DNA of 40,622 nucleotides from Candidatus Altiarchaeota archaeon (lineage in GTDB: Archaea > Altiarchaeota > Altiarchaeia > IMC4 > SCGC-AAA252-I15). Of the stretch, positions 7,627-33,647 are shown one piece after another. The notes below the pieces were generated by a model. That model did no database searches. It was given only the letters and a program-made list of their open reading frames with translations, and had not been told where the DNA came from. Numbering within the stretch: position 1 is the first letter of the stretch; each line of letters opens with the position of its first letter. A program made the translations under genes and the position numbers. The stretch is from NCBI GenBank assembly GCA_043804895.1, contig JAZDIN010000007.1, positions 1 to 40,622 on the forward strand, written 5' to 3'.

Positions 7627-7628
7627 CT

Positions 7629-16740: not shown

Positions 16741-19700
16741 ATGGACTTTCTGAAGGGTGCTAAGCTCGAATTGTTACACCTGCAGGCTGAGAACAGTCTC
16801 AAGAAGGGCGACTTCAGGTCTGCTTTGAAACACTACGAGGAGCTTTTCTCCATGTCCCTTGACGGCGCTGGGGAGGCGTCCGTCGCATACTACCTTGAGA
16901 GGATTGGCGACTGCTACGATAACCTCGACCACCACGGCCACAAGGAACGGATAGAAGACCACCGGAAGGCGGCTGAAAACTACGTTAAATCCGCTGACCG
17001 ATATAGGAAGTTGAGGAATCACGAGAAGGCGGGGGAGATATATGAGAAGGGCGCGAAGGCGTATGAGGAGGTGGATGACTTCACATCGGCTGCTGAGTTC
17101 TACAAGGAGTCTGCGACCATGTTCTCTGAAGTCAGGGACTACGTTAACGCGAGCTACGCCTACAACACGGCAGCAAGATACTACGAGAAGGACGGAAAAT
17201 TCGATGACGCAGCCAAGAACTATCAGGAGTCGGCTATATGCGACATGAGGATAAAGGACACGGCCAGCGCGGCCACGAGCTTCAAGAAGGCTGCGCAGAC
17301 GTATGAGAACGCGAAGAACTGGGCGAAGGCGATCGACGCCTACGCTGGGTCGGTCGAGATTGACTTGATAAACCGGCATTACCTGGACGTTGCGGACACA
17401 TACGATAGGATGGCTGACTGCTACTATGAGACGAACGACCAGAAGAACGCCGTCTACTATCACATAAAATCCGCGGAGCTTAAGGATGCGAACAGCGACA
17501 AGAACGGCGCTGGGTTAAGTTACAGGAAGGTGGGCACAATATACGAGAACGCAGGGGAATACGATCACTCGATAGAATACTTCCTTAAGTCTGCGAAGAA
17601 CTACTACGGCGCCAGCAGCTTCCAGCAGGAGGGGGCGTCGTACATGAACGCCGGCAGGGTTTATGAGTTGAAAGGCGATTTCGAAAAGGCTGGTGACTCA
17701 TACCTTGAGGCAGGAAAGTCCAATCGCGTCGGTAGGAACGAACCATTAGCCGAGGAGGGTTTCCTGAAGGCCGCGCAATCGTATTCGAAGGCCGCGGAAA
17801 AGACGGAAGACAAGGTAAAGTCAGCGGAGCTTAACATGAAGGCTGCACTCGCCTACAGTGAGATAAAGTCCTATGAGAGGTCGGCTGACTCATACAACAA
17901 GTACGCCGAGCTCATGTCAGCCGCAGGCGATAAGGTACACGCAGACGAAGGCTTCCGGAAGGCTGCGGAGGAGTACGTGAAAGGCGGGAAGATATGGGGG
18001 GCTGCGGAGGCGTACGTTAACCACGAGGACTACAAGAGGGCTTCTGAACTATACGACGCCCACGCCAACGAGAGGGCTGCCAAAAAAGACAACTTCGGCG
18101 CAGCAAACTCCTACATGGAGGCAGGCAACTGCTACAGGCGGCTTGGAAACGAGGCTGTGATGAAGGCCAGGCTCGAGCGTGCGGTATACTATTTCACTAA
18201 GTTCATAGAGGAGACGAAGGACAAGGACAAGTCTGAGAAGGCTATGCTGCTTCTGGGCGACTCATTCCGCAAAATCGGCGAATGCAACAAGACGCTGGCG
18301 GAGCTCATGGACGCGCAGCGGCACCTCACAAAGGCTGAGGAATACTACCTGAAAGCGAACGACGCCGACAGGCTGAACCTCGCCCGAGCCCTGAGGCTGA
18401 AGGTTGACGGAGTCAAGGCAATAGACCACGGATACTACCCTCAGGCTGAGGAGCTGCTCAGGGAGTCGCAGACTCTCCTTGATGCTTCCATCAAAAGCGG
18501 GGCATGGAAGCGGGAGTACGCGAAGATACTTGCCGAGGGTTTGGAGGAGGCGAAGGAGCTTGTCGAGAAGATAAAGCTGAAGCCTGAGGTGGTGCTCGAC
18601 GTCGACAGGTACTCGTACACGTTCCTGAACATCCCCGTCATACTCAACCTCACCCTGTCCAACAACGGCAAATACACGATGAAGGACGTGACGTTCCTAG
18701 AACACCTGCCTGAGGAGATTAAGCTGACGAAACTCCCAGAACACATGCCTGAGATAGTCTCCGGCGGCGTGAAGTCCTCATCCATCGAATTGAACCCAGC
18801 CAAAACCGGCCTACACATGCTCAAGCCGGTCGAGGTCTACTACGAGGACCAGAAAGGCCACAAGTACGTGAAGGCAAGCAACGAAGTCGTCCTCGAAGTA
18901 GTGGAGAGGCCGCCGACAGACTACAAGAACTACGCCAGCGCCTTGGAAATCTTCAGAAAATACGCGCAGTCCCAGGAGTCCAACAAAAACTGGTTCCAGG
19001 CAGGCGACGGGTACCGGCAGATGGCAGTCACCTACGGCCGCTTCAGAACAGACGAGACGCTGACCGGCTACCTGACCAAGTCTGTCGAGAACTACCGCAA
19101 ATACGTGGAAGCATACAGGAACCTGGGGGAGACTGACGACAAAACCAGGGTGAAGCGCCTTGCAGACGCCAACTGGTTCGCAGCCGAAGGCCTCAGGAAC
19201 CTGAACCAGATGGACGACTCAATCAGGCACTATGATGAGTCGATACCATTATACCGCCGCGGGAAGATGGAAAACCTCGCCAACCGCTCCGCTGCCTTGA
19301 AGCTGAAGTCAGAGGGTGTGAAGGCGATAAGGCTTGGCGACTACGGCAAGGCAGAAGGCAAACTGAATGAGGCGCTCGTATACATAGGCGAGGTAATAAA
19401 GGCAGGAGGGTACGACACAGACGGACTGGAGTTTTTGAAGAAAAACGAGGACGAGACAAGGAAGATGATAGAGACCGTCAAAGCCAAGCCAGAGATAAAC
19501 GTGATAGTGTCAGCTCCAAAATCAGCTCAACAAGGCGAGACCGTCACAATGAAAGCCACCATAACGAACCCGCTCGCACAAGACGTCCTGTCAGTGAGGC
19601 CTATGGTCAAGACCGTGGAAGGAGTAGAGGTGGTGGAGAACGCGAAACCGGTGGGCGGGTTGAAGGCAGGCGGTAGCGCGGACACGGAATTCAGGGTCAG

Positions 19701-22071
19701 GTTCAACAAAACCGGGCAGTACACGTTCAGCCCACTGGACGTCACATACAACGACGACAAGGGGAACGCGTTCATGCGCGGCAGCGCGGAATTGACAGTG
19801 GACGTGAGAGAGGAGTCTGAGGAAATTAGGCAGACCGTGCAGGAAACGAAGCCTGACATCAACATCGACCTTGACACCTACTCGTACACGTTCATAAACA
19901 TCCCGGTCATACTGAACATCAAGCTATCAAACAGCGGCGCATATGCGATGAGGAAGGTCACGTTCCTCGAACACCTCCCTGAGGGGATAAAACTCACGAA
20001 GCTGCCTGAGGGCGTTGCAGAGATAGAGCCGAACGGAATAAGACTGTCCTCGATTGAACTTACGCCCTCAAAGACCGGCATGTACACGATAAAACCGATA
20101 GAGGTGTACTACGAGGATTTGAAAGGGAGCAAATACGTGAAAGCCAGCAACCAGACCACCCTCGAGGTGGTCGAGAGGCCGCCCGCAGACTACAAAAACT
20201 ACATGAACGCGGTGGAGATATTCAAAAGATACGCCCAGTCGCAGGAGTCTAACAGGAACTGGTTCCAAGCAGGCGACGGATACCGGCAGATTGCAGGCAC
20301 ATACGGCCGCTTCAGAAGCGATGACACCCTGATGGGATACCACAGCAAGTCAATCGAAAACTACCGCAAATACGTTGAATCCAGCAAGCCCGAAGAAGCG
20401 GAAGACAAAACGAAAATCAAAAGGCAGGCTGACGCGTACTGGTTCGCAGCAGAGGCACACCGAAGCCTCAACCAGCTTGACGATTCAGTGAGAGCCTACG
20501 ATGAATCGATAATCTTATACCAGCACGGTGGGATGGACAACCTCGGCAACCGCTCTAAAGCCTTGAAGCTGAAGGCCGAGGGAGTCAAGGCCATAAGACT
20601 CGGGATGTACGAGAAAGCAGGGGAGAAGCTGAACGAGTCCCTGGCCCATATCAACGAGGTCATCAAGGCGGGAGGGTATGACGCCGACGGACTGGAGTTT
20701 TTGAAGAAAAACGAGGACGAGGCTAAGAAGATGCTCGAGACCCTCCTTACAAAGCCTGAGATAAGCGTTGTCGTGGAAGCCCCGAGGACTTGCCAAGTCG
20801 GGGACCCTGTCACATTGAAGGCGACAGTAACAAATCCCCTAAGCTACGGCATAACCGGCGTACGCTCGATAGTCAAGACAGTCGAAGGCGTGGAGGTAGT
20901 GGAGAATGGCAAGCCAGTGGACAGGATAGATGCAGGGAAAAACGCAGCAACCGAGTTCAAGATACGGTTCAACAAGGCTGGGCAGTACACGTTCAGCTCC
21001 CTGGATGTCACATACAACGACGATAAGGGGAAGTCCTACATGGTAGGCAGCAACGAGACGAAGATATCAGTAGGCGACAGCGCCCAAACAAGGATAATAC
21101 GGCCTCTCGGGGATTTTGGCAAACCGTCCCTCTCGCTTGATTTCGGAGTGGAAGCCAAGGTGAAAGCCCTCGTCGAGACTGAAATCACAGGAGTCGTATC
21201 AAACGACGGGACAGTGGACGTACTTGGCGTAAGGTTCATCGGGAACAACACAGACGATGTGGAAGTGCTGGAGGCGCCGAAAGAAATCGGATCCCTAACA
21301 GCCGGCGAGAGGATGGAAGTGAAGGCGAAGATAAAGGCCCTGAAGACAGGTACATTCCAATTCAACCCGTTCGAGTTCTTCTACAAGGACAAGCAAGGCA
21401 AACGGTTCTTCAAAGGAAGCAACCAGTTGACAGTCAACGCGCAGGAAGCTGAGGCGAAGAAAATCCAACAAGCCAGGGCATCATCGGAAGCCGAAGAGGC
21501 GAGGTTAGTGGACATAAGGGGCAGATTGGATGCGATACTCACCACCCTAGCGGACAACTCTGTCGTACTAATATCCTCAGACCTCGAGAAGCACAGCCAA
21601 GTCACGACAAACACACTGGACATCCTCATAAACCAGAAACGGATGGGCGGGGTCTATATCAGCGTAAGCCGGCCGTGCGAAGTAATACTTTCGGAACTTA
21701 AGGCTGAGGGTGTGCCGGCTGAGAACATACGCTTCATAGACTGCATAAGTCTGATGGCTGGGAAAAGCAGGGGGAAAGAAATCGAGAACGCAGTGTTCAT
21801 AGAGAATCCGAGCTCACTTGAGGAAATCAGCATGTACTTGGACAACATGCTCTCCAAAGTTAAAACCCAGAGGAAGTTCATCATCCTCGACTCTCTGGAC
21901 AGCGCCCTCATATACAACACAGACAAGAGCGTGAGGGAATTCACCCACTTCATAATCAACAGGATACGGCTTGAAAAGATAACCGGAGTCATATTAGCGA
22001 TGGAAAAGAAGGAAGCAGAAGACATAGTCAGGACAGTAGCATCAATGTGCGACACGGTAATAAAACTCTGA
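16741..22071 (+). CDS. Giant cytoplasmic protein: SNAP/TPR-like solenoid, repeated helical + Ig-like modules, C-terminal inactive KaiC/RecA-fold domain
   Basis: 1776 aa with no signal peptide or TM. Recurring A..Y..AA..Y helical repeats over aa 1 to about 610. Five beta-sandwich units (N.G...V.F...TG...P.EV.Y.D.KG). C-terminal GVYISVSRP/FIDCIS/IILDSL/CDTVIKL without a Walker A motif. Confidence 0.85.
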   Translation: MDFLKGAKLELLHLQAENSLKKGDFRSALKHYEELFSMSLDGAGEASVAYYLERIGDCYDNLDHHGHKERIEDHRKAAENYVKSADRYRKLRNHEKAGEIYEKGAKAYEEVDDFTSAAEFYKESATMFSEVRDYVNASYAYNTAARYYEKDGKFDDAAKNYQESAICDMRIKDTASAATSFKKAAQTYENAKNWAKAIDAYAGSVEIDLINRHYLDVADTYDRMADCYYETNDQKNAVYYHIKSAELKDANSDKNGAGLSYRKVGTIYENAGEYDHSIEYFLKSAKNYYGASSFQQEGASYMNAGRVYELKGDFEKAGDSYLEAGKSNRVGRNEPLAEEGFLKAAQSYSKAAEKTEDKVKSAELNMKAALAYSEIKSYERSADSYNKYAELMSAAGDKVHADEGFRKAAEEYVKGGKIWGAAEAYVNHEDYKRASELYDAHANERAAKKDNFGAANSYMEAGNCYRRLGNEAVMKARLERAVYYFTKFIEETKDKDKSEKAMLLLGDSFRKIGECNKTLAELMDAQRHLTKAEEYYLKANDADRLNLARALRLKVDGVKAIDHGYYPQAEELLRESQTLLDASIKSGAWKREYAKILAEGLEEAKELVEKIKLKPEVVLDVDRYSYTFLNIPVILNLTLSNNGKYTMKDVTFLEHLPEEIKLTKLPEHMPEIVSGGVKSSSIELNPAKTGLHMLKPVEVYYEDQKGHKYVKASNEVVLEVVERPPTDYKNYASALEIFRKYAQSQESNKNWFQAGDGYRQMAVTYGRFRTDETLTGYLTKSVENYRKYVEAYRNLGETDDKTRVKRLADANWFAAEGLRNLNQMDDSIRHYDESIPLYRRGKMENLANRSAALKLKSEGVKAIRLGDYGKAEGKLNEALVYIGEVIKAGGYDTDGLEFLKKNEDETRKMIETVKAKPEINVIVSAPKSAQQGETVTMKATITNPLAQDVLSVRPMVKTVEGVEVVENAKPVGGLKAGGSADTEFRVRFNKTGQYTFSPLDVTYNDDKGNAFMRGSAELTVDVREESEEIRQTVQETKPDINIDLDTYSYTFINIPVILNIKLSNSGAYAMRKVTFLEHLPEGIKLTKLPEGVAEIEPNGIRLSSIELTPSKTGMYTIKPIEVYYEDLKGSKYVKASNQTTLEVVERPPADYKNYMNAVEIFKRYAQSQESNRNWFQAGDGYRQIAGTYGRFRSDDTLMGYHSKSIENYRKYVESSKPEEAEDKTKIKRQADAYWFAAEAHRSLNQLDDSVRAYDESIILYQHGGMDNLGNRSKALKLKAEGVKAIRLGMYEKAGEKLNESLAHINEVIKAGGYDADGLEFLKKNEDEAKKMLETLLTKPEISVVVEAPRTCQVGDPVTLKATVTNPLSYGITGVRSIVKTVEGVEVVENGKPVDRIDAGKNAATEFKIRFNKAGQYTFSSLDVTYNDDKGKSYMVGSNETKISVGDSAQTRIIRPLGDFGKPSLSLDFGVEAKVKALVETEITGVVSNDGTVDVLGVRFIGNNTDDVEVLEAPKEIGSLTAGERMEVKAKIKALKTGTFQFNPFEFFYKDKQGKRFFKGSNQLTVNAQEAEAKKIQQARASSEAEEARLVDIRGRLDAILTTLADNSVVLISSDLEKHSQVTTNTLDILINQKRMGGVYISVSRPCEVILSELKAEGVPAENIRFIDCISLMAGKSRGKEIENAVFIENPSSLEEISMYLDNMLSKVKTQRKFIILDSLDSALIYNTDKSVREFTHFIINRIRLEKITGVILAMEKKEAEDIVRTVASMCDTVIKL
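18580..21075 (+). repeat. Intragenic tandem duplication with a period of 1269 nt (423 aa)
   Basis: KPEVVLDVDRYSYTFLNIPVILN at 18580 recurs as KPDINIDLDTYSYTFINIPVILN at 19849. Long near-identical peptides occur in both copies (NWFQAGDGYRQ, GLEFLKKNEDE, VKTVEGVEVVEN). Confidence 0.95.
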
Positions 22072-22127: not shown

Positions 22128-22370
22128 ATGGTGCAGGCTATCATAAACATCGAAGACCAGACAAACCGCGTCATCAACATGGTTAAGGCCAAATACGGCC
22201 TAAGGGACAAGAGCGAAGCCATCAACGTAATGGCGCAACAGTATGAGGAAAAAGTACTGGAACCACAGCTTAGGCCGGAATACGTGAAAAAGGCCAGGTT
22301 GATAATGAAGCAGAAACCGATAAAAGTCGGCACCGTGGGAGCGCTCAGGAAGAGGATGGGCCTGACTTAA
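22128..22370 (+). CDS. Putative antitoxin (DUF2683-like, ribbon-helix-helix type)
   Basis: MVQAIINIEDQTNRVINMVKAKYGLRDKSEAIN...EPQLRPEYVKK. Adjacent to a RelE-like toxin gene. Confidence 0.8.
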   Translation: MVQAIINIEDQTNRVINMVKAKYGLRDKSEAINVMAQQYEEKVLEPQLRPEYVKKARLIMKQKPIKVGTVGALRKRMGLT

Positions 22371-22639
22371 CGCGGCCTGTATATCCTGTCGTGATGGTCA
22401 TAGTCTTCCAACGTCACTGTCTTCGTTTTCTCATCCACTGAAAAGGCCAGGACAAAGTGTTTGTCTATGTGCACCCTCTTCCACTTATTCAAAGGCGTGC
22501 GGAGGTTCTTGTACCTATTGGGATTCTCCAACACCTCCTCTGTCTTCTTCAGGATGATCTCAACATGCCTCCTATTCCTCTTAGCCAGCTTGGAAAACTC
22601 CCTATCCAACTCCGGCTTAATGGCTAACTGGTACACCAA
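22367..22639 (-). CDS. RelE/ParE-superfamily toxin
   Basis: 90 aa. Motifs Y.L.I...LDREFSKL, NPNRYKNLR, KRVHIDKHFVL and DYDHHDRIY. TTG or GTG start. Confidence 0.82.
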   Translation of the reverse strand: MVYQLAIKPELDREFSKLAKRNRRHVEIILKKTEEVLENPNRYKNLRTPLNKWKRVHIDKHFVLAFSVDEKTKTVTLEDYDHHDRIYRPR

Positions 22640-22685: not shown

Positions 22686-23630
22686 ATGGCCGAGAAGGAC
22701 AAGGATGTGTTTCAGCAGTTTCGGCAGTTGACTGATGAGATACACAAGAAGATTATCGGCAACGACGAGGTCATAGAGAACATCCTGATTGCGATTTTCG
22801 CCGGAGGCCACATACTCCTTGAGAGCGTCCCTGGTATGGGTAAGACGGTGCTGATTAAGGCTGTCGCCGACACCATGGACATGAACTTCATGAGGATACA
22901 GTGCACCCCGGACCTGACTGCGACAGACATCATGGGGAAGGTGAACTACGACGAGACGAAGAAGGAGAACGTCCTGGAGAAGGGCCCAATATTCACCAAC
23001 CTCCTGCTCATAGACGAGATTAATAGGGCGCAGCCGAAGACGCAATCCGCGCTCCTTGAGGCGATGGCCGAGGCTGAGGTGACGCTCGCGGGGGTGTCGC
23101 ACAAGCTGCCGCAGCCGTTCACGGTCCTTGCGACTGAGAACCCAGTGGAGCAGATGGGCACGTATCCGCTCCCGGAGGCGCAGAGGGACCGTTTCATGTT
23201 CATGTCAGTGCTACAGTACCTCTCACTCGAGGAGGAGATGATGATAATAAAGACGAAGTTCAAGGACAGCGCCATAGCGCCGATATTCAACCCTCCCGAG
23301 GTTCTAATCATAAGGGAGGAGATAAAGAACAACGTCACAATGTCCGACTCCGTCCTCGAGTACGCCCTGAAGATAATAGGTGGCACAAGGACGAGAAGGG
23401 AGGTCTCAACCGGCGGAAGCCCGAGAGCGACGATAGACTTCTGCAAGGCAGCGAAGGCGAGGGCATTCTTCAGGGGCCGCGACTTCGTCAACGCTGAGGA
23501 CATCAAAATGCTCTCCTTCCCGGTGCTTCGGCACAGGATAATATTAAACCCGGATTCGAAGGACTTCGGGATAACAACAGACGACGTGATAGCGAAGGTG
23601 CTGGAGCACGTTGAACCTCCAGTAGACTGA
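22686..23630 (+). CDS. MoxR-family AAA+ ATPase
   Basis: GHILLESVPGMGKT, RIQCTPDL, LIDEINRAQPKTQSALLEAM, ATENPVEQMGTYPLPEAQRDRF, GSPRA and VLRHRI motifs. Confidence 0.95.
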   Translation: MAEKDKDVFQQFRQLTDEIHKKIIGNDEVIENILIAIFAGGHILLESVPGMGKTVLIKAVADTMDMNFMRIQCTPDLTATDIMGKVNYDETKKENVLEKGPIFTNLLLIDEINRAQPKTQSALLEAMAEAEVTLAGVSHKLPQPFTVLATENPVEQMGTYPLPEAQRDRFMFMSVLQYLSLEEEMMIIKTKFKDSAIAPIFNPPEVLIIREEIKNNVTMSDSVLEYALKIIGGTRTRREVSTGGSPRATIDFCKAAKARAFFRGRDFVNAEDIKMLSFPVLRHRIILNPDSKDFGITTDDVIAKVLEHVEPPVD

Positions 23631-23633
23631 AAA

Positions 23634-26006
23634 ATGCGAAAAATCACAATAGCACTCTTGACACTGCTCCTAGTTCAAACGCAGGTCTGCGCCGACGCCC
23701 CTCGCATGAACCTCCAGGCTAAATGGTCCTACAACACGAGAGGCCAGATAGGGGGAATGGTCCTAGCAGACTATGACGGGGACGGAAAGAACGAAGTCTA
23801 CATAGGCCTCAGGAACGACACGATACTCGTCCTAGACAGGTACGGTTCAAAGGTGGCGGAGTTCGCGTTAGGCAACGCATCGCAGATAGGGGGCGTATAC
23901 TCCATGGACGTCGCCGACGTGAACGGCGATGGCATGAAAGAGCTGATATTCGGCCTCGGCGGGGCGAAGGAGGTCAGGACGTACGAGGCCCATGACTTTG
24001 AAATCGGCGACAAAACCCTCACCCCAAAGGACAAGGTGCTCTACAGGGTCGTCAGAAAACACGGCGGAGTCTACGTCACAGGAACTGACGGCACGATGGT
24101 CTGGAGGTACCTTACTGACGACAGCGTCAAATCAGTCCGACACTTCCAAAGGCCCGAGGGCGCGTTCATCGCCGCTGGAGTCGGCGACCTAGTGATATAC
24201 ACCTACAACGAGAGGAGCAACGAGGAAATAGAAGGCAAGGAGGTCTGCACTGAAGAGGAGGTGACTGATGAGGAGGCGAGGTGGACATCTGAGACGGACT
24301 GCAAGAACCACACCAAATGCTGCGAAGACCTCCTTGATTGCGCCTGCAGATGGTCGGAAAAAACCCTTGAAGACGGCCAGACCGAGGACGTCTGCTACAG
24401 AAGCTACACCGAACTAGTGTGCGGGAAGGAGAAGTACGAGCAGGGGTGGCATCTCGTCGACTACCGGGAAACCAACGGCACGCTCACAATACTTGACAAC
24501 AACGGGAAGCTTAAGGGGAAGTATGACATACGCCTCCTGGACGATAAAGGGAAAATCGTGGCTGAAGCAGACAACTCCCTACTTGGAATCTACTCAGCCA
24601 AGATGGGGCAAATCTACGAGGAAATCCTCACCGCCTCAAGCAACGGACAATTAACCGTCCTGAATGTGACAAACCTGACTAGAATCCAATCTTCATGGAA
24701 GACCATAGAAGAGTACCTGACCGACAGAAAGACTGGGGATGTCATGTGGGCGCAGGCGATTGAGCTTCGCGCCGTCAGCGCAGCAGACATAAACAACGAC
24801 AAGCTCACTGAGGTCGTGACAGGCAGCGGCGGTGGGCTGGTAGCGACATACGACAGCCGCGGTAAGCTCATGTGGAAGCAGAAGGTAGACGCAGCCGTAA
24901 CCGACATCACAGTGGACGACATAGAATCAGACGACTCCAAGGACATAGTCGTCTCATCAAGGGATATGAGCATCTACGTCTACGACCCTGAAGGGGACCT
25001 ATCATGGAGCTACCAGGCCGACGACTCAATCTACGGAGTGGAAGTTACAGACCTGGACGACAACAGCCTCAAGGACATACTGATATTCACAACCCAGAAG
25101 GTCGAACGGTACGAGACCACGGAGTTCTACATCAAAAGGTTCAGGGCTGACAGCTACTACTCAAAGGCGTACGACAAATTCGTAGCCGAAGACTACACGG
25201 GAGCGAGCATATTCCTTGATCGGGCCATAAGCCTCTACAGGGAGATAGACGACCGCGACGGCATACCCAAGTGCAACACCCTCCGGGCGAGGATAGACGA
25301 CGAGTTCAAGCTGAGGAACAAACAGGATGCTGACAGGCTGTACAACCTAGCCCTCAGCTACTACGCCTCAAACGACCTTGAGAACACCATGAAAAACGCG
25401 GATGCCGCCCGCATAATATACGAGAAGATAGGCGACAAAGAGGGGATAGGAAGATGCGACTCACTCGAGGCAAACGCGAAGGATGAGGCCAGGACCCAGA
25501 AGAAGATCATGGCAGACGGGTACTACGGCAAGGCCGTCACGCTCAGCAGCTTCCAAAACTACACCGGCGCATTGGAGCTCATTGATAAAGCGAAAGAGAC
25601 GTACGCCGAAGCAGACTACTACAATGAGACCGTGAAATGCGACATGTTCGTGTTAGGCATAGCCGACAGGCACTACCGCCTCGCCGAGGCCGCGTTCAAA
25701 TCAGAAGATTATGTGAAGGCGATATCATATGCGAAAATTGCAAGAGACCTCTACCTAAGGGCAGGAAGTGTCAACGCGTCTGAAACCGCAGGCGAACTGT
25801 TAAGGGAAGCAACCGACGCAATGAACAACCCCAAGCCTAATAGGGGGGCAGACATGGACTACATGCCATACGTACTAGGAGCGGCGGCTGTAATCATCCT
25901 CCTCGCAGCCTACTCCAGGATAAAGCGGCCGAAGACCCGTGTCATGAGAATGCCGCCGCAGGCAGCGGATGAGGAACTGGAGGCGCTTGAGAAAGAGAAC
26001 CTATAA
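23634..26006 (+). CDS. Secreted, C-terminally membrane-anchored FG-GAP/VCBS-like beta-propeller + TPR-like protein
   Basis: Signal peptide MRKITIALLTLLLVQTQVCA. Five DxDxDG-like loops (DYDGDG, DVNGDG, DINNDK, DIESDD, DLDDNS), a Cys-rich insert, helical repeats, TM YVLGAAAVIILLAAY and an acidic tail. Confidence 0.8.
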   Translation: MRKITIALLTLLLVQTQVCADAPRMNLQAKWSYNTRGQIGGMVLADYDGDGKNEVYIGLRNDTILVLDRYGSKVAEFALGNASQIGGVYSMDVADVNGDGMKELIFGLGGAKEVRTYEAHDFEIGDKTLTPKDKVLYRVVRKHGGVYVTGTDGTMVWRYLTDDSVKSVRHFQRPEGAFIAAGVGDLVIYTYNERSNEEIEGKEVCTEEEVTDEEARWTSETDCKNHTKCCEDLLDCACRWSEKTLEDGQTEDVCYRSYTELVCGKEKYEQGWHLVDYRETNGTLTILDNNGKLKGKYDIRLLDDKGKIVAEADNSLLGIYSAKMGQIYEEILTASSNGQLTVLNVTNLTRIQSSWKTIEEYLTDRKTGDVMWAQAIELRAVSAADINNDKLTEVVTGSGGGLVATYDSRGKLMWKQKVDAAVTDITVDDIESDDSKDIVVSSRDMSIYVYDPEGDLSWSYQADDSIYGVEVTDLDDNSLKDILIFTTQKVERYETTEFYIKRFRADSYYSKAYDKFVAEDYTGASIFLDRAISLYREIDDRDGIPKCNTLRARIDDEFKLRNKQDADRLYNLALSYYASNDLENTMKNADAARIIYEKIGDKEGIGRCDSLEANAKDEARTQKKIMADGYYGKAVTLSSFQNYTGALELIDKAKETYAEADYYNETVKCDMFVLGIADRHYRLAEAAFKSEDYVKAISYAKIARDLYLRAGSVNASETAGELLREATDAMNNPKPNRGADMDYMPYVLGAAAVIILLAAYSRIKRPKTRVMRMPPQAADEELEALEKENL

Positions 26007-26007
26007 C

Positions 26008-26550
26008 ATGGAAAACAGAGTCAAGTGGGCGCTGACAGCTATCATCGTGATAGCGATTCTTGTCGCATTGAACCTCAGGCTAAGCCCCACCCTGATAACC
26101 TACGCCCTCGCTTGCGCAATCGTTGTGACAGCGCTTTTGGTGTTGAAGCCGTCAGACCAGACGCTGTCGATGGACCTCAGCCATAAGATGAAGCGCGATG
26201 GCGGGATAAAACTGGACAGCAAGGAGAAGAAGCTACTCACCTTCCACATACTCGCCCTACTTGAGAAGAAGGAGGATGTTGACATGAACGAGCTGGCAGA
26301 GGAATTCAACACGAGCGTATACCAGCTGAACGACATCGTCCGAATGCTTGGCAAACACGAGCTAGTCACAATCTTCTACCCTCCTATGCACAACTTCCCC
26401 ATCCTCAGGAGGGGCGACGCTGAGAAGAGCAGGAAGTTCAGGCTCAACATATTCAAGTCGATAGTCAAGGGCAAGGAGTCTAACGGGTCTAAGATGGACG
26501 AGTTCGCGAAGGAGGTTGAAGAATACCTTGAAAACGTCAAAAGAAAATAA
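26008..26550 (+). CDS. Two-TM membrane protein with a cytoplasmic winged-helix domain
   Basis: Start at the ATG 1 nt after the upstream stop. Two N-terminal hydrophobic helices, then ILALLEKKEDVDMNELAEEFNTSVYQLNDIVRMLGKHELVTIFYP, which is wHTH-like. Confidence 0.7.
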   Translation: MENRVKWALTAIIVIAILVALNLRLSPTLITYALACAIVVTALLVLKPSDQTLSMDLSHKMKRDGGIKLDSKEKKLLTFHILALLEKKEDVDMNELAEEFNTSVYQLNDIVRMLGKHELVTIFYPPMHNFPILRRGDAEKSRKFRLNIFKSIVKGKESNGSKMDEFAKEVEEYLENVKRK

Positions 26551-27538
26551 AGCCACGGGCGCGTGGAAAATCCTCCTCACAGCAGCCTTGATGCTCCAAG
26601 CAACCTCAACAGCACAGGCAAACGACTACAGGACAGTAGAATCCTGCGCACTGGAATCCTCCCCCGGGTCCTGCTGGCCGGCCCAGATTATCTACTACGC
26701 CGGGGACCACACCTTCTGCAGCACAGGCGGACTCCCCTATTGGGTCGGATTCTACAGCGGACCGTCTAAGGGAGGATGCTACGAAATACTGTCCGTGGCA
26801 TGCAACTGCAAGGACCAGTTCGACTGCATAGTATTGCAGCCTCCAATTCCCCCCGATGTCGGTGCCAACGTCGAGGCCGGCGACATATTCAGCGTCTGGG
26901 ACTACTACCCCTCATGCTACGAGAGCCTCCCCTCCTCCATATTCCTTGACGTCGGCAACGACACAGACTACGAATGGTATGCGCCACGATGCTTCAGGGG
27001 CCCTGAGACGGTCGACGTCACTGAAAGCTTGAACAACTACGTCCGAGGCGGCTGCTGGTGCACGGGCTGCGTGTACGACAGTGACAGCAGAAACTGCACA
27101 GTCCCAGTCGTCTTCAAATCAGATTATCCTGGATGGTTCACAATCGACAACGTCAAACTCACGTTCACTAAGCTCAACACCCTCGGGGAAGTCACATACG
27201 GCACTCCCTTCAGAAACAGCGAAGGAGGATGCTGGATGATACAATATAAAAAAGACCCAGAAACCTACACACCCATCCTCCCAGTGCCTGCTGATTACCA
27301 CGGTGGAGTCTGCGACATGCCCGACTACGTTTACAAGGAAAAGTCAGGCCCCATCACCACAGACGACGCTGTGGACGATGCGGTGTACCGGCTCCTCAAC
27401 GGAACCCTCGACACAAACGGTGACGGCATAATGGACTTGGAATACAAAAGGGATAAGATGGAATTCCAGACTGAAGGGAAGATAGGAGTCCAGACACTAT
27501 GGGGGCCGATTCAGATGAGGCTGGTCGTATGGTCCTAG
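26528..27538 (+). CDS. Secreted Cys-rich pilus-associated/adhesin-like protein
   Basis: Sec-like signal ending TAQA, many Cys, and a DTNGDG loop. The C-terminal DDAVYRLL...LWGP...LVVW resembles the ends of archaeal pilus-locus proteins. TTG start 11 nt after GGAGGT; alternative start at 26516. Confidence 0.6.
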   Translation: MKTSKENKATGAWKILLTAALMLQATSTAQANDYRTVESCALESSPGSCWPAQIIYYAGDHTFCSTGGLPYWVGFYSGPSKGGCYEILSVACNCKDQFDCIVLQPPIPPDVGANVEAGDIFSVWDYYPSCYESLPSSIFLDVGNDTDYEWYAPRCFRGPETVDVTESLNNYVRGGCWCTGCVYDSDSRNCTVPVVFKSDYPGWFTIDNVKLTFTKLNTLGEVTYGTPFRNSEGGCWMIQYKKDPETYTPILPVPADYHGGVCDMPDYVYKEKSGPITTDDAVDDAVYRLLNGTLDTNGDGIMDLEYKRDKMEFQTEGKIGVQTLWGPIQMRLVVWS

Positions 27539-28854
27539 GGGTGAGGGGATACATCTTCACCCTCATAACAGCCATGATGGCCATGGTGATACTATCGCTC
27601 ATCCTCTTCCAGACTGAAATCTCAGCCCCGATATTCGAGGACGCTTCGAATAAGATGAGCGTGGAAGAATCACACTACTTCGTGGAGTCCCTCAAAAAGG
27701 ATGCGCAGAGGGCGCAGGCCATATCAGGCCAGCGGGCTGCCACATACGCCATCGACCACATAATCTCAACCAACGAGAGCATGGATGGGTATGGGATGAG
27801 AAACTGCACTGAATTCAACTACTCCACTGCCGGCGTCGAGGCCGCCCTCTCCGAGCTCGCATTCTGCGGCACATTAGCTAATGCTAAGGTGGAGACAGAC
27901 CAGGACGAGCTGGAAAAGTATATGGAGAACAACACCATACGCGACTGGATGGGGAAGGTGCAGGAGAACCGGACGCCCGGCGTAGCATACAACGTCAGCG
28001 TACGGCTCAGGAACATGAGCCTCGCCGCCTACGACTCATGGCATTACGCCATAGTCGGCGAATACGATTTAGTCGTGGACGCAGGCGGAGGAAACAGGTT
28101 CGCAGGATACGGTATCCCAGTCGTTTCAGTCGTGGACATCACCACTATGGAAGACCCCCTGCATCACATGAAATACGGTATACCCGCCTCAATGAGATTG
28201 TTCAGGCGGTGCGAAACGCTCCCAAGGCTCAACGGCAAGGTACTGGACCGCTGGGTGGAGGAAGGCTGCTACAACATGGAGTGGAACCGGGAAAACGCCC
28301 CCTCGTTCTTCGACAGGCTAGAGGGAAGAGACAGCCTAGACCCGGACCTAATCGAGGAGTCCGCTTCACTTTTGGGCGGCCTCGGCTACACTCCAGGCGA
28401 ACTTGGCTTAGAGAGCATGCTAGACCTCCAACTCCTCGAGAAGTACAACCTCACAGTGAATGGGAACCTAAGCCAGGTCGACCACTCCTACTGGGGCAAC
28501 GTGGAAAGCAGATGCGCGGTCGATGGCATGATGAAGCACCCTGACTTCAGAATGGACGTGGAACATGCGGTGAAATACAGGGTGGTTGGCTTAGACTGCA
28601 CAGTCTACGTGGACGTGGTAGGCTCAACATGCAAGTTCAACCCTGAGAAGATAAAAGTACCACTCAACACAACCATATCCTGGGTTGAACTCGGCAGCGG
28701 ACGCAAAGACCTTTACATAGTGGAACTGGACACGCCCCTCCCAGTCGAAGCCAACGGGAAGGTCCAATGGCTGTTCAACGAAACTGGCACATACACGATA
28801 GCATGCCTGGACGCCTCAGACGCATCCACAGTCGAAGTAACTGACAGATTCTAG
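27529..28854 (+). CDS. Minor pilin-like protein with class III-like signal peptide and C-terminal cupredoxin-like domain
   Basis: MVLGVRG/YIFTLITAMMAMVILSL. EDPL, PSFFDRLEG and GLES motifs, which I associate with archaeal pilus-locus proteins. C-terminal FNPEKIKV...ISW...FNETGTYTIAC. Confidence 0.65.
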   Translation: MVLGVRGYIFTLITAMMAMVILSLILFQTEISAPIFEDASNKMSVEESHYFVESLKKDAQRAQAISGQRAATYAIDHIISTNESMDGYGMRNCTEFNYSTAGVEAALSELAFCGTLANAKVETDQDELEKYMENNTIRDWMGKVQENRTPGVAYNVSVRLRNMSLAAYDSWHYAIVGEYDLVVDAGGGNRFAGYGIPVVSVVDITTMEDPLHHMKYGIPASMRLFRRCETLPRLNGKVLDRWVEEGCYNMEWNRENAPSFFDRLEGRDSLDPDLIEESASLLGGLGYTPGELGLESMLDLQLLEKYNLTVNGNLSQVDHSYWGNVESRCAVDGMMKHPDFRMDVEHAVKYRVVGLDCTVYVDVVGSTCKFNPEKIKVPLNTTISWVELGSGRKDLYIVELDTPLPVEANGKVQWLFNETGTYTIACLDASDASTVEVTDRF

Positions 28855-28991: not shown

Positions 28992-30818
28992 ATGGACGAC
29001 AAAAACCCCGCTTCTGGGGCTAAAGACCAGAAGAAAGCGCTGTTAGAACTTATAAACTCCTCAGGCAGGATAAAGATATCCCAGGCCTCCGAGGAAATGG
29101 GTTTGGACAAGAACATCCTCATCAACCTCGCCGAGGAACTCGCCCGCGACCACGCGATACGCGTCGAATCCCACTACATCACCGAACCGGAACTGGAAGC
29201 CCTCAACTATAAGGAGACAAAAAAAGAGGAGGCCACCTCAGAGAAGTCCATACAGATGGAGACTCCGCCGGTGCCGATGGCAAGGGCGGTGCCGAAGGAC
29301 ACGCCCGAGGCGAAGAAACAGGAGGTGATGGACGATTACATACTCACCTCAGACGAAGTCCACTTCAACGTTAAAATAACGGACGTCGGCGACTTCGTGC
29401 CCCACTACCTCATAACAATACCCCACATCGACTTCGTGACACGAGCCCTCCTCGATGAGACCAAAAGGTACCTGATAAGCGACGTGAAGGTGGAGACAGC
29501 GGACGTCTTCGACACAGCGAAGTTCCTGAAGATAAAGTCGAAGTTCACAAGCCGCGCCAAGGACAAGCTAAGGAACGTACTAAAAAAGTCATCTGACGAG
29601 TACGTCGCCACCCTAAGCAAGCTACTCGTCAACGAGATGCTCGGCCTCGGCGACCTAGAATACCTGCTCCTGGACGACAAGCTGGAGGAGGTCGTAGTCA
29701 ACTCCAGCAGGGACGTGGTGTGGGTCTACCACAAGAACCGCGGGTGGCTGAAGACGAACATAATCCTGCCCACAGAGGACCTGATACTCAACTACTCCTC
29801 AAGGGTCGCAAGGGAGGTCGGCAGGGAGATAACCCACCTGAACCCACTACTGGACGCCCACCTCACAACCGGAGACCGCATAAACGCCACACTCTCACCC
29901 ATATCAACTGCAGGCAATACCATAACAATTCGACGGTTCTCAAGGGTTCCATGGAGCGTCATAAACATGCTCGACCCCCAAGTCAAGACCGTGAGCTCCG
30001 AGGTAGCTGCCTTCCTGTGGATGGCGATAGAGTACGAGTTGAGCGTACTCATCGCAGGCGGCACAGCATCAGGGAAGACCAGCATGCTCAACTCAATCAC
30101 CCCATTCATGCCAGCTAACCAGAGGATACTCTCCATAGAAGACACGCGCGAACTAAACCTCCCCGACTACCTCCAATGGGTTCCGATGACCACCAGGCAG
30201 CCGAACCCGAAAGGTGAGGGGGGAATCACCATGCTCGACCTTTTACAGAACGCCCTTAGGATGCGCCCTGACAGGATAATAGTCGGCGAAGTCAGAGCAA
30301 AAAGAGAATCGGAAGTGCTCTTCGAGGCCATGCACACAGGACACTCAGTCTACTCGACATTCCATGCTGAGAGGGCTCAGGAGGTCGTCGACCGAATCAC
30401 AAGCCCGCCGATGAGCATACCCGGCACGGTCATGAAGTCCCTGCACCTGATAGTCATACAATACCGGAACAGGCGGACCGGAAAGAGGAGGACATTCGAA
30501 GTGTGCGAGCTGATGAAGGACGAGTCCGAGATGCCGACCCTCAACACCCTCTACAAGTGGGAGCCAAGAACCGACACACTCGGTAAGATGTACCCGAGCA
30601 TCAGGGTCAAGGAAGAACTCGCTCTCTTCACAGGGATGAACGAGAAGGAGATAGAGGAGGATATACAGGACAAGAAACAGGTGCTTGACTGGATGTTAGC
30701 CTCAGGCGTGTACGAGGTGAACAGCGTAGGCAGGGTCGTCACAGAATACTACATGAATAAGGAGAAGATAACCGGGATGGCTAAGAAGAAAGCACAGATG
30801 ATAAAATTCAACCCCTAA
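28992..30818 (+). CDS. Type IV pilus/type II secretion ATPase (CpaF/VirB11/FlaI family) with an extra N-terminal winged helix
   Basis: GGTASGKTS (Walker A), SIEDTREL (Asp box), LRMRPDRIIVGEVR (Walker B) and HTGHSVYSTFH (His box). Confidence 0.95.
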   Translation: MDDKNPASGAKDQKKALLELINSSGRIKISQASEEMGLDKNILINLAEELARDHAIRVESHYITEPELEALNYKETKKEEATSEKSIQMETPPVPMARAVPKDTPEAKKQEVMDDYILTSDEVHFNVKITDVGDFVPHYLITIPHIDFVTRALLDETKRYLISDVKVETADVFDTAKFLKIKSKFTSRAKDKLRNVLKKSSDEYVATLSKLLVNEMLGLGDLEYLLLDDKLEEVVVNSSRDVVWVYHKNRGWLKTNIILPTEDLILNYSSRVAREVGREITHLNPLLDAHLTTGDRINATLSPISTAGNTITIRRFSRVPWSVINMLDPQVKTVSSEVAAFLWMAIEYELSVLIAGGTASGKTSMLNSITPFMPANQRILSIEDTRELNLPDYLQWVPMTTRQPNPKGEGGITMLDLLQNALRMRPDRIIVGEVRAKRESEVLFEAMHTGHSVYSTFHAERAQEVVDRITSPPMSIPGTVMKSLHLIVIQYRNRRTGKRRTFEVCELMKDESEMPTLNTLYKWEPRTDTLGKMYPSIRVKEELALFTGMNEKEIEEDIQDKKQVLDWMLASGVYEVNSVGRVVTEYYMNKEKITGMAKKKAQMIKFNP

Positions 30819-30819
30819 G

Positions 30820-31686
30820 ATGAAATCCATATTCGAGTCGCCGGTAGTGCTCAAGATGAGCGAACCCCTACTGGAGTACGCGTACCGCCTCGAGGTCCTG
30901 TTCCCCCAAATGGAGTGGAACCTAAAGCGCGCCGGATACACCCTAGAGAGCTCGCAGTACCTTGCTGTGGCCATATACCTTAGCGTGACTGTGTTCACGT
31001 TCTGCGTGCCAATCCTCGTCCTACCGGTCCTTTTCACACAGGGCATCGCTGCAAGCTACGCCAGCATAATATACTCAATCATCATATCAGCAGCAGTCCT
31101 CGTGTACGTGATGATGCTACCCTCAGTGAGGATGAAAAGCAGGGCAGTCACAATCGACCGCGACCTGGAATACCTCCTCAAGGACATGAGGATACAACTG
31201 ACCGCGGGAGTCCCCCTCTTCGATACCATCGTCAACGTCGCCAAAGGCGGATACGGGGAATGCTCGAAGATATTCGAAGGGGTCATACAGGAGGTGGAGC
31301 AGGGCAGGTCAATCGTCGACGTCCTAGACGACGTAGGAATGTGGTCCTCCTCAGAGTACTTCCGAAGGATGCTCTGGCAGATAGTCAACGCACTCAAGTC
31401 CGGAAGCGACATAGCGAACGCACTCGACGCCCTCTCAAACGATATACGCCTGGAGAAGGAGAACAGGATAAGGGCCTACGGCAAGGAACTCAACCTCTAC
31501 GGCCTCATCTACCTGATGTTCGCCATCATAGTCCCCTCAATGGGCGTCACACTCCTAGTCATACTCTCAAGCTTCCTAGGGGGGAAGATGATAAACGAGA
31601 CCCTCTTCTGGATGATACTCATAGGCGTTGCGCTCTTCCAGACTATATTCATAGTGTACGTCAGAAGCAAGAGGCCCCTAGTCTAA
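30820..31686 (+). CDS. Type II secretion system F-family (TadB/TadC/FlaJ-like) platform protein
   Basis: TM pair, then GVPLF...GYGECSKIF...QIVNALKSGSDIANAL, then a C-terminal TM pair. Directly follows the ATPase. Confidence 0.9.
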   Translation: MKSIFESPVVLKMSEPLLEYAYRLEVLFPQMEWNLKRAGYTLESSQYLAVAIYLSVTVFTFCVPILVLPVLFTQGIAASYASIIYSIIISAAVLVYVMMLPSVRMKSRAVTIDRDLEYLLKDMRIQLTAGVPLFDTIVNVAKGGYGECSKIFEGVIQEVEQGRSIVDVLDDVGMWSSSEYFRRMLWQIVNALKSGSDIANALDALSNDIRLEKENRIRAYGKELNLYGLIYLMFAIIVPSMGVTLLVILSSFLGGKMINETLFWMILIGVALFQTIFIVYVRSKRPLV

Positions 31687-31687
31687 G

Positions 31688-32866
31688 ATGGCAGAAAACG
31701 AACCGAAGGGAATAAGGGTAGTCAAGCCGGACCTAGAGAGGGTGAAGAATGCAGCATCCTCAGCATTCAATACTGTATCATGGCTATTCAAACTCGTCTT
31801 CTGGGCTGTGAACATGATAGTGAGACTCTTCACGAAATTCCTGAACGTGATGGGATCCAGCGTCAAACTGCTCATGACACACATCCCCCGGTTGCTCTCC
31901 AAGATACTCCCGAAGAGGGTGAACAGCATCCTCGGGCAGCAGCTAATCTACGCCGGCGTCGAGATGACCCCAGCGGAGGTCATAAGCCTAACCCTCGTCT
32001 ACAGCACCGTACTCACCGCGGTAGCTTACGTGTCGATGCTCCTCCTTGCAGCATCACAGCTTGTGACCTCGGTAATACTAGTGGTCATCTTCTGCCTAGT
32101 CTGGTCTCTGCCACTCCTACTTCTGAACATCCTCGCAACCAACAGGGCGAATGCTGTGGAACTCACCCTCCCCGACATCCTAAGCATGGTAGCCCAGAAC
32201 ATGAGCGCAGGCATGACCTCCTACAACGCCCTCTGGAGCGCAGCCCGCCCCGAATTCGGCCCACTCGCTGTCGAGATACAGGATGTGGCGAAAGCCACCC
32301 TCACCGGGATACCGATGGCCGACGCCCTCATGGGGATGACCAACCATGTTAAGTCCACGAAGCTGCTTCGGGTAGTGAGGCTGATAATCCAGGGTATGAA
32401 ATCAGGAGGGGAACTGCCGACGGTATTGCAGGCAATATCATCGGACATGAGGCGGGAGGACAACCTCAGGAAGCAGATGGGCGCTGAAACCACAGCCCAG
32501 GCAATATTCATCCTATTCGCTGTCCTGGTGGGGGCCCCGCTCCTCTTCGCAGTCTCAGCCCAGTTCATAACGATATTCTCCACCATGATGGAGAAACTGA
32601 ACGTCCAAGACCTGAGCAAAAACGCCCCCCAGGGGATGATAACCATCAGCCAACTCTCAATCACACCCGAATTCTTCCAAACCTACGCCATCGGCATACT
32701 CTTCGTGTCAGCGTTCTTCGGCTCACTCCTACTCGGCATACTCAAGACCGGAAACCCGCTCTCAGGCCTATCCACCACACCACTCCTCATAACAGTCTCC
32801 ATCGGCATATTCCTACTCATAAAACACGGCCTCGGCCTACTATTCGCAGGGATGATAACCTTCTAA
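31688..32866 (+). CDS. Type II secretion system F-family (TadC-like) platform protein
   Basis: LPDILSMVAQNMSAGMT...ARPEFGPLA...GMKSGGELPTVL, with several TM helices and a long N-terminal extension. Confidence 0.9.
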   Translation: MAENEPKGIRVVKPDLERVKNAASSAFNTVSWLFKLVFWAVNMIVRLFTKFLNVMGSSVKLLMTHIPRLLSKILPKRVNSILGQQLIYAGVEMTPAEVISLTLVYSTVLTAVAYVSMLLLAASQLVTSVILVVIFCLVWSLPLLLLNILATNRANAVELTLPDILSMVAQNMSAGMTSYNALWSAARPEFGPLAVEIQDVAKATLTGIPMADALMGMTNHVKSTKLLRVVRLIIQGMKSGGELPTVLQAISSDMRREDNLRKQMGAETTAQAIFILFAVLVGAPLLFAVSAQFITIFSTMMEKLNVQDLSKNAPQGMITISQLSITPEFFQTYAIGILFVSAFFGSLLLGILKTGNPLSGLSTTPLLITVSIGIFLLIKHGLGLLFAGMITF

Positions 32867-33164: not shown

Positions 33165-33647
33165 ATGATAGGAAATAAAGGACAGGGTGCGATGGAGTAC
33201 CTAATGACCTACGGATGGGCTATTCTCGTAGTGATGATAGTCGGGATCGTAATGTGGCAGCTGGGCATATTCAACATGGGCGGAACCACAGTAACGGCCA
33301 CAGGATTCGCCAAAATCAAGCCACAACTGGCTGGAACCGGCTTAGGCCACAGTGGGGATTTCGTGGGCGTTTTCACGAACGGAGTCGGGACGATGATTAT
33401 CCTCAGTGATACCAGTGCTGCGCTAACTATGTACCAAGATGGGGGTACAGGGACATGCCAAGCCTATACCATAACTCCTAAGACGGTCTCTGCAGGTCAG
33501 AACTTCCAGGTCACTGCAAGCGGCTGCTACAGCGGTTCAGCAGGCGACGTCTACAACCTCCAGGTTTCACTACCCTACACAGTTAGTATCGGCAGCGTGA
33601 GCACAGACCACACAGAATCTGGAGCAATAAGAGGGCCAATGGAGTAA
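33165..33647 (+). CDS. Archaeal type IV pilin (class III signal peptide), probable major pilin
   Basis: MIGNKG/QGAMEYLMTYGWAILVVMIVGIVMWQLGIF: basic-Gly cleavage site, Gln at +1, Glu at +5, hydrophobic helix. Beta-rich Thr/Ser/Gly head with two Cys. Confidence 0.9.
   Translation: MIGNKGQGAMEYLMTYGWAILVVMIVGIVMWQLGIFNMGGTTVTATGFAKIKPQLAGTGLGHSGDFVGVFTNGVGTMIILSDTSAALTMYQDGGTGTCQAYTITPKTVSAGQNFQVTASGCYSGSAGDVYNLQVSLPYTVSIGSVSTDHTESGAIRGPME

What the first reader, a model, noticed from the sequence alone, without database searches (positions are those of the whole stretch)
16741..22071. 1776-aa cytoplasmic SNAP-like solenoid + five Ig domains: architecture reminiscent of eukaryotic trafficking scaffolds
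Seen: there is no signal peptide or TM. About 450 aa of A..Y..AA..Y helical hairpins are followed by H-Ig-H-Ig-Ig-H-Ig-Ig and a RecA-fold domain. Established: alpha-SNAP is a TPR-like solenoid that acts with an AAA+ ATPase (NSF), and large TRAPP subunits are alpha-solenoids followed by Ig-like sandwiches. Prokaryotic BatD/CARDB-type Ig domains are usually exported. Inference: this is an intracellular solenoid-Ig scaffold encoded next to an AAA+ ATPase and a membrane machine. The resemblance may be convergent.
Basis: partly seen in the sequence, partly recalled or inferred. Interest (0 to 1): 0.75.

Follow-up and report, generated by a model that had tools for sequence, protein, structure and literature searches.

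The report
Archaeal solenoid-Ig partner of MoxR ATPase
A very large protein inside the cell of an uncultured archaeon, built of helical repeats and antibody-like folds, that nearly always sits beside a protein-remodelling motor lacking its usual helper and probably serves as that helper; its likeness to eukaryotic trafficking scaffolds is mostly generic.

Summary
The ORF and domain order are real: a solenoid of 20-residue helices, H-Ig-H-Ig-Ig-H-Ig-Ig (partly a recent 414-aa duplication, 67% identical) and a KaiC-type domain without Walker A; no signal peptide or TM by hydropathy. The host is an Altiarchaeota archaeon. The family (750-1850 aa; core = solenoid + helical cap + one Ig) occurs in 41 of 49 genomes of the order. 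In 27 of 31 readable loci it precedes an intact MoxR AAA+ ATPase; these MoxRs form one clade and 0 of 31 loci have the DUF58/vWA partner. The type IV pilus genes follow in only 7 of 14 long loci. The C-terminal cap is swapped between two inactive-KaiC families. The solenoid has SNAP-like geometry (gamma-SNAP rmsd 4.1 A/248) but scores higher against LGN; the Ig is a generic MG/TRAP-beta/CARDB type; the ATPase is not NSF-like. Best reading: cytoplasmic client adaptor for a vWA-less MoxR, wired to KaiC signalling (0.55; binding untested). Side result: a single-copy Asgard family (about 120 of 251 genomes) shares the hairpin-cap-Ig module by profile comparison, with mixed controls.

The parts
16741..22071 (+). 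1776-aa cytoplasmic solenoid-Ig-iKaiC protein (whole gene)
16741..18000 (+). N-terminal solenoid of 20-residue helices (aa 1-420), SNAP/LGN class
18001..18912 (+). Core module 1: hairpins + helical cap (aa 421-612) + Ig1 (aa 613-724); present in all full family members
18913..19818 (+). Module 2: hairpins + cap + Ig2 (aa 725-1026)
19852..21084 (+). Ig3 + module 3 with Ig4 (aa 1038-1448); duplicate of aa 613-1026 (67% aa, 72% nt)
21124..21453 (+). Ig5 (aa 1462-1571)
21511..22068 (+). Inactive KaiC-type cap (DUF7504-like), no Walker A, Walker B-like strand kept
22128..22639 (.). Inserted toxin-antitoxin-like pair: DUF2683 (22128-22370, +) and ParE-like (22367-22639, -); not between the two genes in relatives
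22686..23630 (+). MoxR AAA+ ATPase (AAA_3 + AAA_lid_2), catalytic motifs intact; member of a clade with no adjacent DUF58
23634..26006 (+). FG-GAP beta-propeller + helical repeats, N-terminal signal-like segment and C-terminal TM; follows MoxR in 15 of 31 loci
25969..26550 (+). Two-TM protein with weak winged-helix match
26516..28854 (+). Two proteins of no Pfam family (340 and 451 aa), conserved in the pilus-linked loci; the second has an N-terminal TM
28992..32866 (+). Type IV pilus ATPase (T2SSE) and two TadC/T2SSF membrane proteins
33165..33647 (+). Probable pilin (short charged leader + hydrophobic helix; class III signal reading is recalled, no Pfam match)

Best explanation
A lineage-specific cytoplasmic adaptor for the neighbouring MoxR AAA+ ATPase, standing in for the DUF58/vWA partner that MoxR-proper enzymes normally use. 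Shown: fold and domain order, cytoplasmic character by hydropathy, order-wide conservation, fixed linkage to one MoxR clade, absence of DUF58 at the locus, interchangeable inactive-KaiC cap. Inferred: (1) the solenoid and the hairpin-cap-Ig modules bind a client complex and present it to the MoxR ring for ATP-driven remodelling, as SNAP does for NSF, by analogy only; (2) duplication of the module adds reach or binding sites; (3) the cap docks on an intact KaiC-family ATPase and gates the activity; (4) in part of the order the client lies at the membrane, in the beta-propeller/type IV pilus assembly encoded downstream. Direct binding and the client are not shown.
For: MoxR follows on the same strand in 27 of 31 genomes with a readable 3' side, within 224 bp in 24, across five families at 24-56% identity of the big protein and 53-82% of MoxR. 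These MoxRs form one clade (FastTree 0.86; 28 tips incl. 3 duplicate loci) and none has DUF58 nearby, while 61 of the other 87 MoxR tips do; DUF58 0 of 31 loci. The genome's only DUF58 sits in a separate MoxR-DUF58-vWA-vWA operon. MoxR motifs are invariant. Of 48 family proteins, 17 end in a DUF7504-type and 9 in a DUF835-type cap; the two fall in separate branches and DUF7504-type caps interleave with those of membrane proteins encoded right behind intact KaiC genes. In G009 an intact KaiC gene lies between the big gene and MoxR. Bathyarchaeia loci L441-L443 show the same order solenoid-Ig-degenerate KaiC beside an intact KaiC. Passages of PMC3495828 (vWA as substrate-binding co-chaperone of MoxR), PMC5847659 (DUF835 = inactivated KaiC), PMC4858521 (KaiC and MoxR/vWA as predicted pilus regulators) fit.
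Against: All functional steps rest on gene neighbourhood and analogy. In 4 of 31 genomes (G026, G031, G037, G040) the two genes are apart, including the single-contig genome G026, where the family member is shortened (569 aa) and MoxR keeps the beta-propeller. The MoxR clade could use the DUF58 of the other operon in trans (39 of 41 genomes have one). Its sister MoxR in the same genome also lacks DUF58 yet has other neighbours (PrgI/TraG-like ATPase), so loss of DUF58 does not require this protein. About half of the family has no KaiC cap. Genomes are kin, so the counts are not independent. My DUF58 profile was home-built and missed or could not see partners in 26 of 87 other tips. The Asgard look-alikes keep no common neighbour.
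Confidence: 0.55

Rival explanations
1. A dedicated type IV pilus assembly or control scaffold, with MoxR as an accessory chaperone of the pilus locus.
For: In the window the gene heads a same-strand run ending in pilus ATPase, two TadC and a pilin; the ATPase follows within 7.3 kb in 7 loci; KaiC-family and MoxR genes are known companions of archaeal pili (PMC4858521 passages).
Against: Among 14 MoxR-linked loci with 9 kb or more of downstream DNA, 7 lack the pilus ATPase; family f5 keeps only the big gene and MoxR together.
Confidence: 0.17
2. Mainly a KaiC-network signalling hub: the solenoid-Ig part senses or binds a ligand protein and the cap relays to KaiC; MoxR is a co-regulated neighbour.
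For: Two inactive-KaiC families were recruited as caps; intact KaiC inserted in the operon in G009; same domain order beside KaiC in Bathyarchaeia without MoxR in the fetched DNA.
Against: The cap is missing in about half the members, whereas MoxR linkage holds with or without it.
Confidence: 0.13
3. A true relative of eukaryotic trafficking factors (alpha-SNAP, large TRAPP subunits) acting in membrane traffic with an NSF-like cycle.
Confidence: 0.07
4. An exported or surface protein of BatC/BatD type with an unrecognised export route.
For: The Ig domains are of a class common in secreted and S-layer-like proteins; TPR and BatD proteins accompany MoxR in Bat operons (recalled; PMC3557215 seen as a search listing only).
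Against: No hydrophobic leader in the window protein or in family N-termini; fusion to a KaiC-type domain; the same Ig class occurs in a STAND-NTPase protein (P0137); archaeal intracellular Ig adaptors are described (10.1101/2024.02.06.579148 passages).
Confidence: 0.03

Closest known systems
MoxR-proper (AAA_3) systems with DUF58/vWA partners, incl. Bat operons
   Same: Intact MoxR with AAA_lid_2; neighbours with helical repeats and BatD-like Ig; membrane protein downstream
   Different: No DUF58/vWA at the locus (0 of 31); the fixed partner is one large cytoplasmic solenoid-Ig protein upstream; separate MoxR clade
alpha/gamma-SNAP (Sec17) with NSF
   Same: 20-residue helical hairpins, similar sheet-like geometry; genomic pairing with an AAA+ ATPase suggests the same adaptor logic
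   Different: Six times longer, continues into Ig and KaiC domains; ATPase is MoxR; sequence closer to LGN-type TPRs
Inactivated KaiC-like fusion proteins of archaea (DUF835, iKaiC; PMC5847659 passages)
   Same: C-terminal RecA-type domain without Walker A, fused to other domains, homologs beside intact KaiC
   Different: Fused to a solenoid-Ig scaffold linked to MoxR; cap optional and exchanged between families
Large TRAPP subunits, adaptin/COP appendages, BBSome GAE domains
   Same: Helical solenoid followed by Ig sandwiches in a cytoplasmic protein; weak Pfam and fold matches of the Ig
   Different: Helical modules interleave with Igs; Ig matches are no better than to MG/transglutaminase-C/TRAP-beta; no appendage platform domain
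Archaeal 'adaptin-like' Ig proteins in ESCRT loci (10.1101/2024.02.06.579148 passages)
   Same: Intracellular Ig-like domains proposed to bind cargo next to an AAA+ ATPase
   Different: Those go with Vps4 and ESCRT-III and carry propeller or TBP domains; this goes with MoxR and has a SNAP/LGN-type solenoid
Uncharacterised Asgard family found here (alignments A6, A7)
   Same: Hairpins + cap + Ig in the same spacing (284 collinear columns)
   Different: 450-690 aa, one module, long coiled coil instead of KaiC cap, no common gene neighbour; common descent about even odds

Membership tests
alpha-SNAP/Sec17 | 20-residue helical hairpins forming a twisted sheet | tested here: met
alpha-SNAP/Sec17 | Sequence closer to SNAP than to other TPR classes | tested here: not met
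   LGN 90.7 bits vs alpha-SNAP 67.7; Pfam SNAP passes its cut-off but rings in 3 of 14 control genomes too
alpha-SNAP/Sec17 | Single domain of about 290 aa ending in the NSF-stimulating C-terminus (recalled) | tested here: not met
   1776 aa; family 750-1850 aa, ending in Ig or KaiC-type cap
alpha-SNAP/Sec17 | Partner is an NSF/Cdc48-type AAA+ ATPase | tested here: not met
   Linked ATPase is MoxR: AAA_3 190.9 bits, AAA_lid_2; linkage, not binding, was tested
alpha-SNAP/Sec17 | SNARE substrates in the genome | tested here: inconclusive
   No PF05739 match in an 89% complete genome; controls silent
Large TRAPP subunits | Alpha-solenoid followed by Ig sandwiches | tested here: met
   helical modules interleave with the Igs
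Large TRAPP subunits | Ig domains specifically of the TRAPP/GAE type | tested here: inconclusive
Large TRAPP subunits | Bet3-type core subunits in the genome | tested here: inconclusive
   No PF04051 match; controls silent
MoxR-proper system | Catalytically intact MoxR | tested here: met
   Walker A, Walker B, arginine-finger and sensor-II positions invariant in 21 of 21 sequences (motif names recalled)
MoxR-proper system | Adjacent DUF58/vWA gene | tested here: not met
   0 of 31 loci; present at the separate C66 operon
BatC/BatD exported proteins | Signal peptide or membrane anchor (recalled) | tested here: not met
   Hydropathy only; SignalP not available
Inactivated KaiC-like domains | KaiC/DUF835/DUF7504 profile match without Walker A | tested here: met
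   PDB sequence search gave KaiC only at E 0.25
Inactivated KaiC-like domains | Binds an intact KaiC | not testable with these tools
   Only gene adjacency of homologs
Archaeal type IV pilus locus | Constant linkage to secretion ATPase, TadC and pilin | tested here: not met
   Present in the window but in 7 of 14 long MoxR-linked loci

The most novel reading that the evidence does not exclude
The hairpin-cap-Ig module is an old archaeal adaptor fold inherited by Altiarchaeota (paired with a vWA-less MoxR) and by Asgard archaea (single-copy, about 120 of 251 genomes, with a coiled-coil tail), and the Asgard form lies on the line that gave alpha-SNAP or solenoid-Ig trafficking scaffolds; the window protein would then be a working archaeal model of a SNAP-like adaptor for an AAA+ motor.
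Probability: 0.12. Interest if true: 0.85.

Novelty: new variant of a known kind. Interest (0 to 1): 0.5.

Why it matters
MoxR ATPases are widespread and mostly lack known clients; the rule is that a vWA protein recruits the substrate. A clade conserved across an archaeal order that has dropped this partner and kept a large solenoid-Ig protein gives a clean two-gene test of a different recruitment route, and the swappable KaiC cap offers a concrete link between the proposed archaeal KaiC signalling network and a remodelling motor. The Asgard family found on the way is a conserved, unannotated candidate for work on the origin of SNAP-like adaptors. Against this: the parts are all common folds and the host is uncultured.

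Tried and rejected
Upstream signal peptide or missed start: rejected (stop three codons upstream). Foldseek with the whole model gave only long TPR proteins at rmsd 10-50 A and was uninformative. No TRAPP chain was listed among the top 50 for the Ig model; this does not exclude it. RNA runs: none was listed. Scans of genome contigs with the module alignment (no conserved stretch) and with single MoxR (nothing confirmed) led nowhere. Search for short stand-alone forms (163-550 aa) returned 1 generic TPR protein among 8000 candidates. Full modules were not found in those searched of other groups: 0 of 12 genomes of other Altiarchaeota orders (63-87% complete); only partial TPR or Ig matches in 3 of 301 genomes of the phylum of G063, 2 of 201 of the phylum of G061, and, with the Asgard profile, Ig-only matches in 22 of 201 of the phylum of G367; only some candidates per genome were scored in these large searches. 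The reciprocal search with the Asgard profile ranks three other Ig proteins of this genome above the window protein. CDC48 near the Asgard gene: only 11 of 45 loci, from related genomes, 2-4 genes away; treated as synteny. My recollection that the Heimdall SNARE preprint reports alpha-SNAP homologs was wrong: 0 occurrences. The 2017 KaiC paper is not held. Earlier scan findings: nothing. Eight paper searches (titles and abstract starts seen) listed no paper on this protein or gene pair; supplements (arCOG/asCOG tables) were not looked at and may list these families.

Full report
Observation. The ORF 16741-22071 (+) encodes 1776 aa with a stop three codons upstream and no hydrophobic leader or TM by hydropathy. 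The first 613 residues are helical in an AlphaFold2 model of aa 1-1026 built on 28 sequences (pLDDT 90.6, pTM 0.52), with a 20-residue period. Iterated profiles give the order H-Ig-H-Ig-Ig-H-Ig-Ig-K. Two of the five Igs and one helical block come from a duplication (aa 613-1026 vs 1037-1450, 67% aa, 72% nt). The last domain matches KaiC and DUF7504 above cut-off and has no Walker A; aa 1027-1776 were not folded.

Host and family. Named homologs are Ca. Altiarchaeota; one cluster member is labelled IMC4, which PMC4975002 (passages) places in the Alti-2 clade, so the host is probably Alti-2 (inference). The module profile A1 matches 41 of 49 genomes of the order, 13 of 13 of those at least 90% complete, and 0 of 12 other genomes of the class. 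In the 50%-identity library the first 42 of the 150 listed rows are family members; the rest are generic TPR or multi-Ig proteins. Of 8 low-scoring members looked up, 2 clusters carried names, both Altiarchaeota; the others are unnamed. Lengths run from about 750 to 1850 aa. The invariant core is solenoid + cap + one Ig; modules and Igs are added by duplication. Conservation peaks at the cap-Ig junction and the last Ig hairpin.

Neighbourhood. Of 35 loci examined, 4 were dropped (3 run off the contig, 1 is a solenoid-only second locus). In 27 of the remaining 31 MoxR follows on the same strand, within 224 bp in 24; the beta-propeller follows in 15; the pilus ATPase in 7 of the 14 MoxR-linked loci with at least 9 kb downstream; DUF58 in 0. 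Exceptions are G026, G031, G037 and G040. In a FastTree of 115 MoxR sequences the linked ones form one clade (0.86), sister to a second DUF58-less MoxR of this genome (0.999); 61 of the 87 tips outside the clade have DUF58 within 2.5 kb by my profile. The genome's DUF58 lies in a separate MoxR-DUF58-vWA-vWA operon. In many relatives ArgRS is divergently upstream (4 such genes checked); here a DEAD helicase is, and a DUF2683/ParE-like pair has been inserted before MoxR.

The cap. Of 48 family proteins, 17 end in a DUF7504-type domain, 9 in a DUF835-type domain (Pfam-confirmed for 2) and the rest at an Ig, a helical tail or a contig end. PMC5847659 (passages) lists DUF835 as inactivated KaiC. 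The two cap types branch apart, and DUF7504-type caps interleave with those of membrane proteins encoded directly behind intact KaiC genes (moderate support), which suggests repeated exchange. In G009 an intact KaiC gene sits between the big gene and MoxR. Three Bathyarchaeia loci out of 251 genomes searched carry 1307-1375-aa solenoid-Ig-degenerate-KaiC proteins beside an intact KaiC; their kinship to this family is weaker (hhalign 84).

Asgard look-alike. The ESM Atlas pointed to archaeal clusters at 0.91-0.93. Following this, a family of 450-690 aa (hairpins + cap + Ig + coiled coil) was found in about 120 of 251 Asgard genomes (124 matches, 4 of them Ig-only), single copy except G559. Profile comparison with A1 gives probability 99, score 130 over 284 collinear columns; reversed control 27; other Ig-bearing families 54-67. 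Results against: any solenoid window scores 43-51 on the Asgard helices, cap against cap is not significant (11.6), shuffled helices plus the real Ig still give 84.6, and the reciprocal HMMER search ranks other Ig proteins first. The Ig match (73) is above controls (52-64). I put common descent near even. Its best natural PDB hit is Sec17 at E 0.0026; 12 of 45 members touch Pfam SNAP at E up to 0.05; a TRAPPC11 cluster appears at 0.76, below the Atlas's bar. No neighbour is shared across the 45 loci; a MoxR profile was run on 6 of the family's loci and found none. PMC13734099 (passages) reports Asgard-eukaryote solenoid clusters but has 0 occurrences of SNAP or NSF.

Mechanism. Most likely the protein is the client adaptor of this MoxR clade, replacing the vWA co-chaperone proposed in PMC3495828 (passages): solenoid and modules grip a complex, MoxR remodels it, and the optional cap ties the reaction to KaiC signalling; where the pilus genes follow, the client may be that membrane assembly (PMC4858521 abstract and passages, name KaiC and MoxR/vWA as predicted pilus regulators). 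Fold, linkage and motif states are shown; binding, client and regulation are inferred. Since the beta-propeller protein appears to face outward with a short inner tail, any contact would be through that tail or the two-TM neighbour.

Verdict. Real and conserved; a new variant of MoxR systems made of common folds; the eukaryotic resemblance is mostly generic. Interest 0.5. Not-in-print rests on eight searches; the 2017 KaiC paper and all supplements were not seen and may already list these architectures.

Noticed in passing
L351:1840-3225, L358:3831-5534, L401-L440 (alignments A6, A7): Conserved, almost always single-copy Asgard family (about 120 of 251 genomes): SNAP-like hairpins + cap + Ig + coiled coil, no Pfam family above cut-off for most; best natural PDB sequence hit Sec17 (weak). 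Deserves its own study.
   Followed up: partly
L441:2442-6389, L442:8040-12167, L443:6806-10729, L444:5808-10442: Bathyarchaeia proteins of 1307-1544 aa: TPR solenoid + Ig + one or two degenerate KaiC domains; in L441-L443 flanked by an intact KaiC and an HTH_45-iKaiC gene.
   Followed up: partly
L446:7376-8683, L447:7450-8754, L448, L449, L450: Second Asgard family of about 435 aa with N-terminal TPR/SNAP-like helices and a C-terminal Ig (possibly two); only the last Ig matches this family's profile.
   Followed up: no
L357:7267-7899: 210-aa Asgard protein with a TRAPPC13_C match above the Pfam cut-off in a single stretch (38.4 bits).
   Followed up: no
window 22128-22639: DUF2683 antitoxin-like and ParE-like genes are convergent and overlap by 4 bases rather than forming an operon; inserted between two otherwise adjacent genes.
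   Followed up: partly
L176:2355-7232, L179:2427-7437: A second DUF58-less MoxR, sister to the clade studied, lies behind a PrgI/TraG-like 1088-aa ATPase and a membrane protein; in L179 a secretion ATPase is nearby. Possibly a conjugation-like locus.
   Followed up: partly
L177:1631-3480: Intact KaiC followed by a membrane protein with the same inactive-KaiC cap (51% identical to the cap of the window protein); conserved in many Altiarchaeota loci.
   Followed up: partly
L178:358-2817: An 819-aa FG-GAP beta-propeller paralog lies next to the other (DUF58/vWA) MoxR operon on the opposite strand, so both MoxR loci have such a neighbour.
   Followed up: no
P0069, P0084, P0102 C-termini: Some family members end in a short helical tail that recalls a steadiness-box hairpin (recalled resemblance; no Pfam match).
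   Followed up: no
L304:634-1956, L312:1315-2637: DUF58 proteins next to MoxR in Asgard genomes carry an N-terminal Ig that weakly matches this family's Ig profile (18-21 bits).
   Followed up: no
window 6625-9190: LemA followed by two tandem DUF3137 genes on the minus strand.
   Followed up: no
window 12687-14702: 671-aa biotin-carboxylase-like ATP-grasp protein, longer than usual, between NAD synthase and diphthamide synthase.
   Followed up: no
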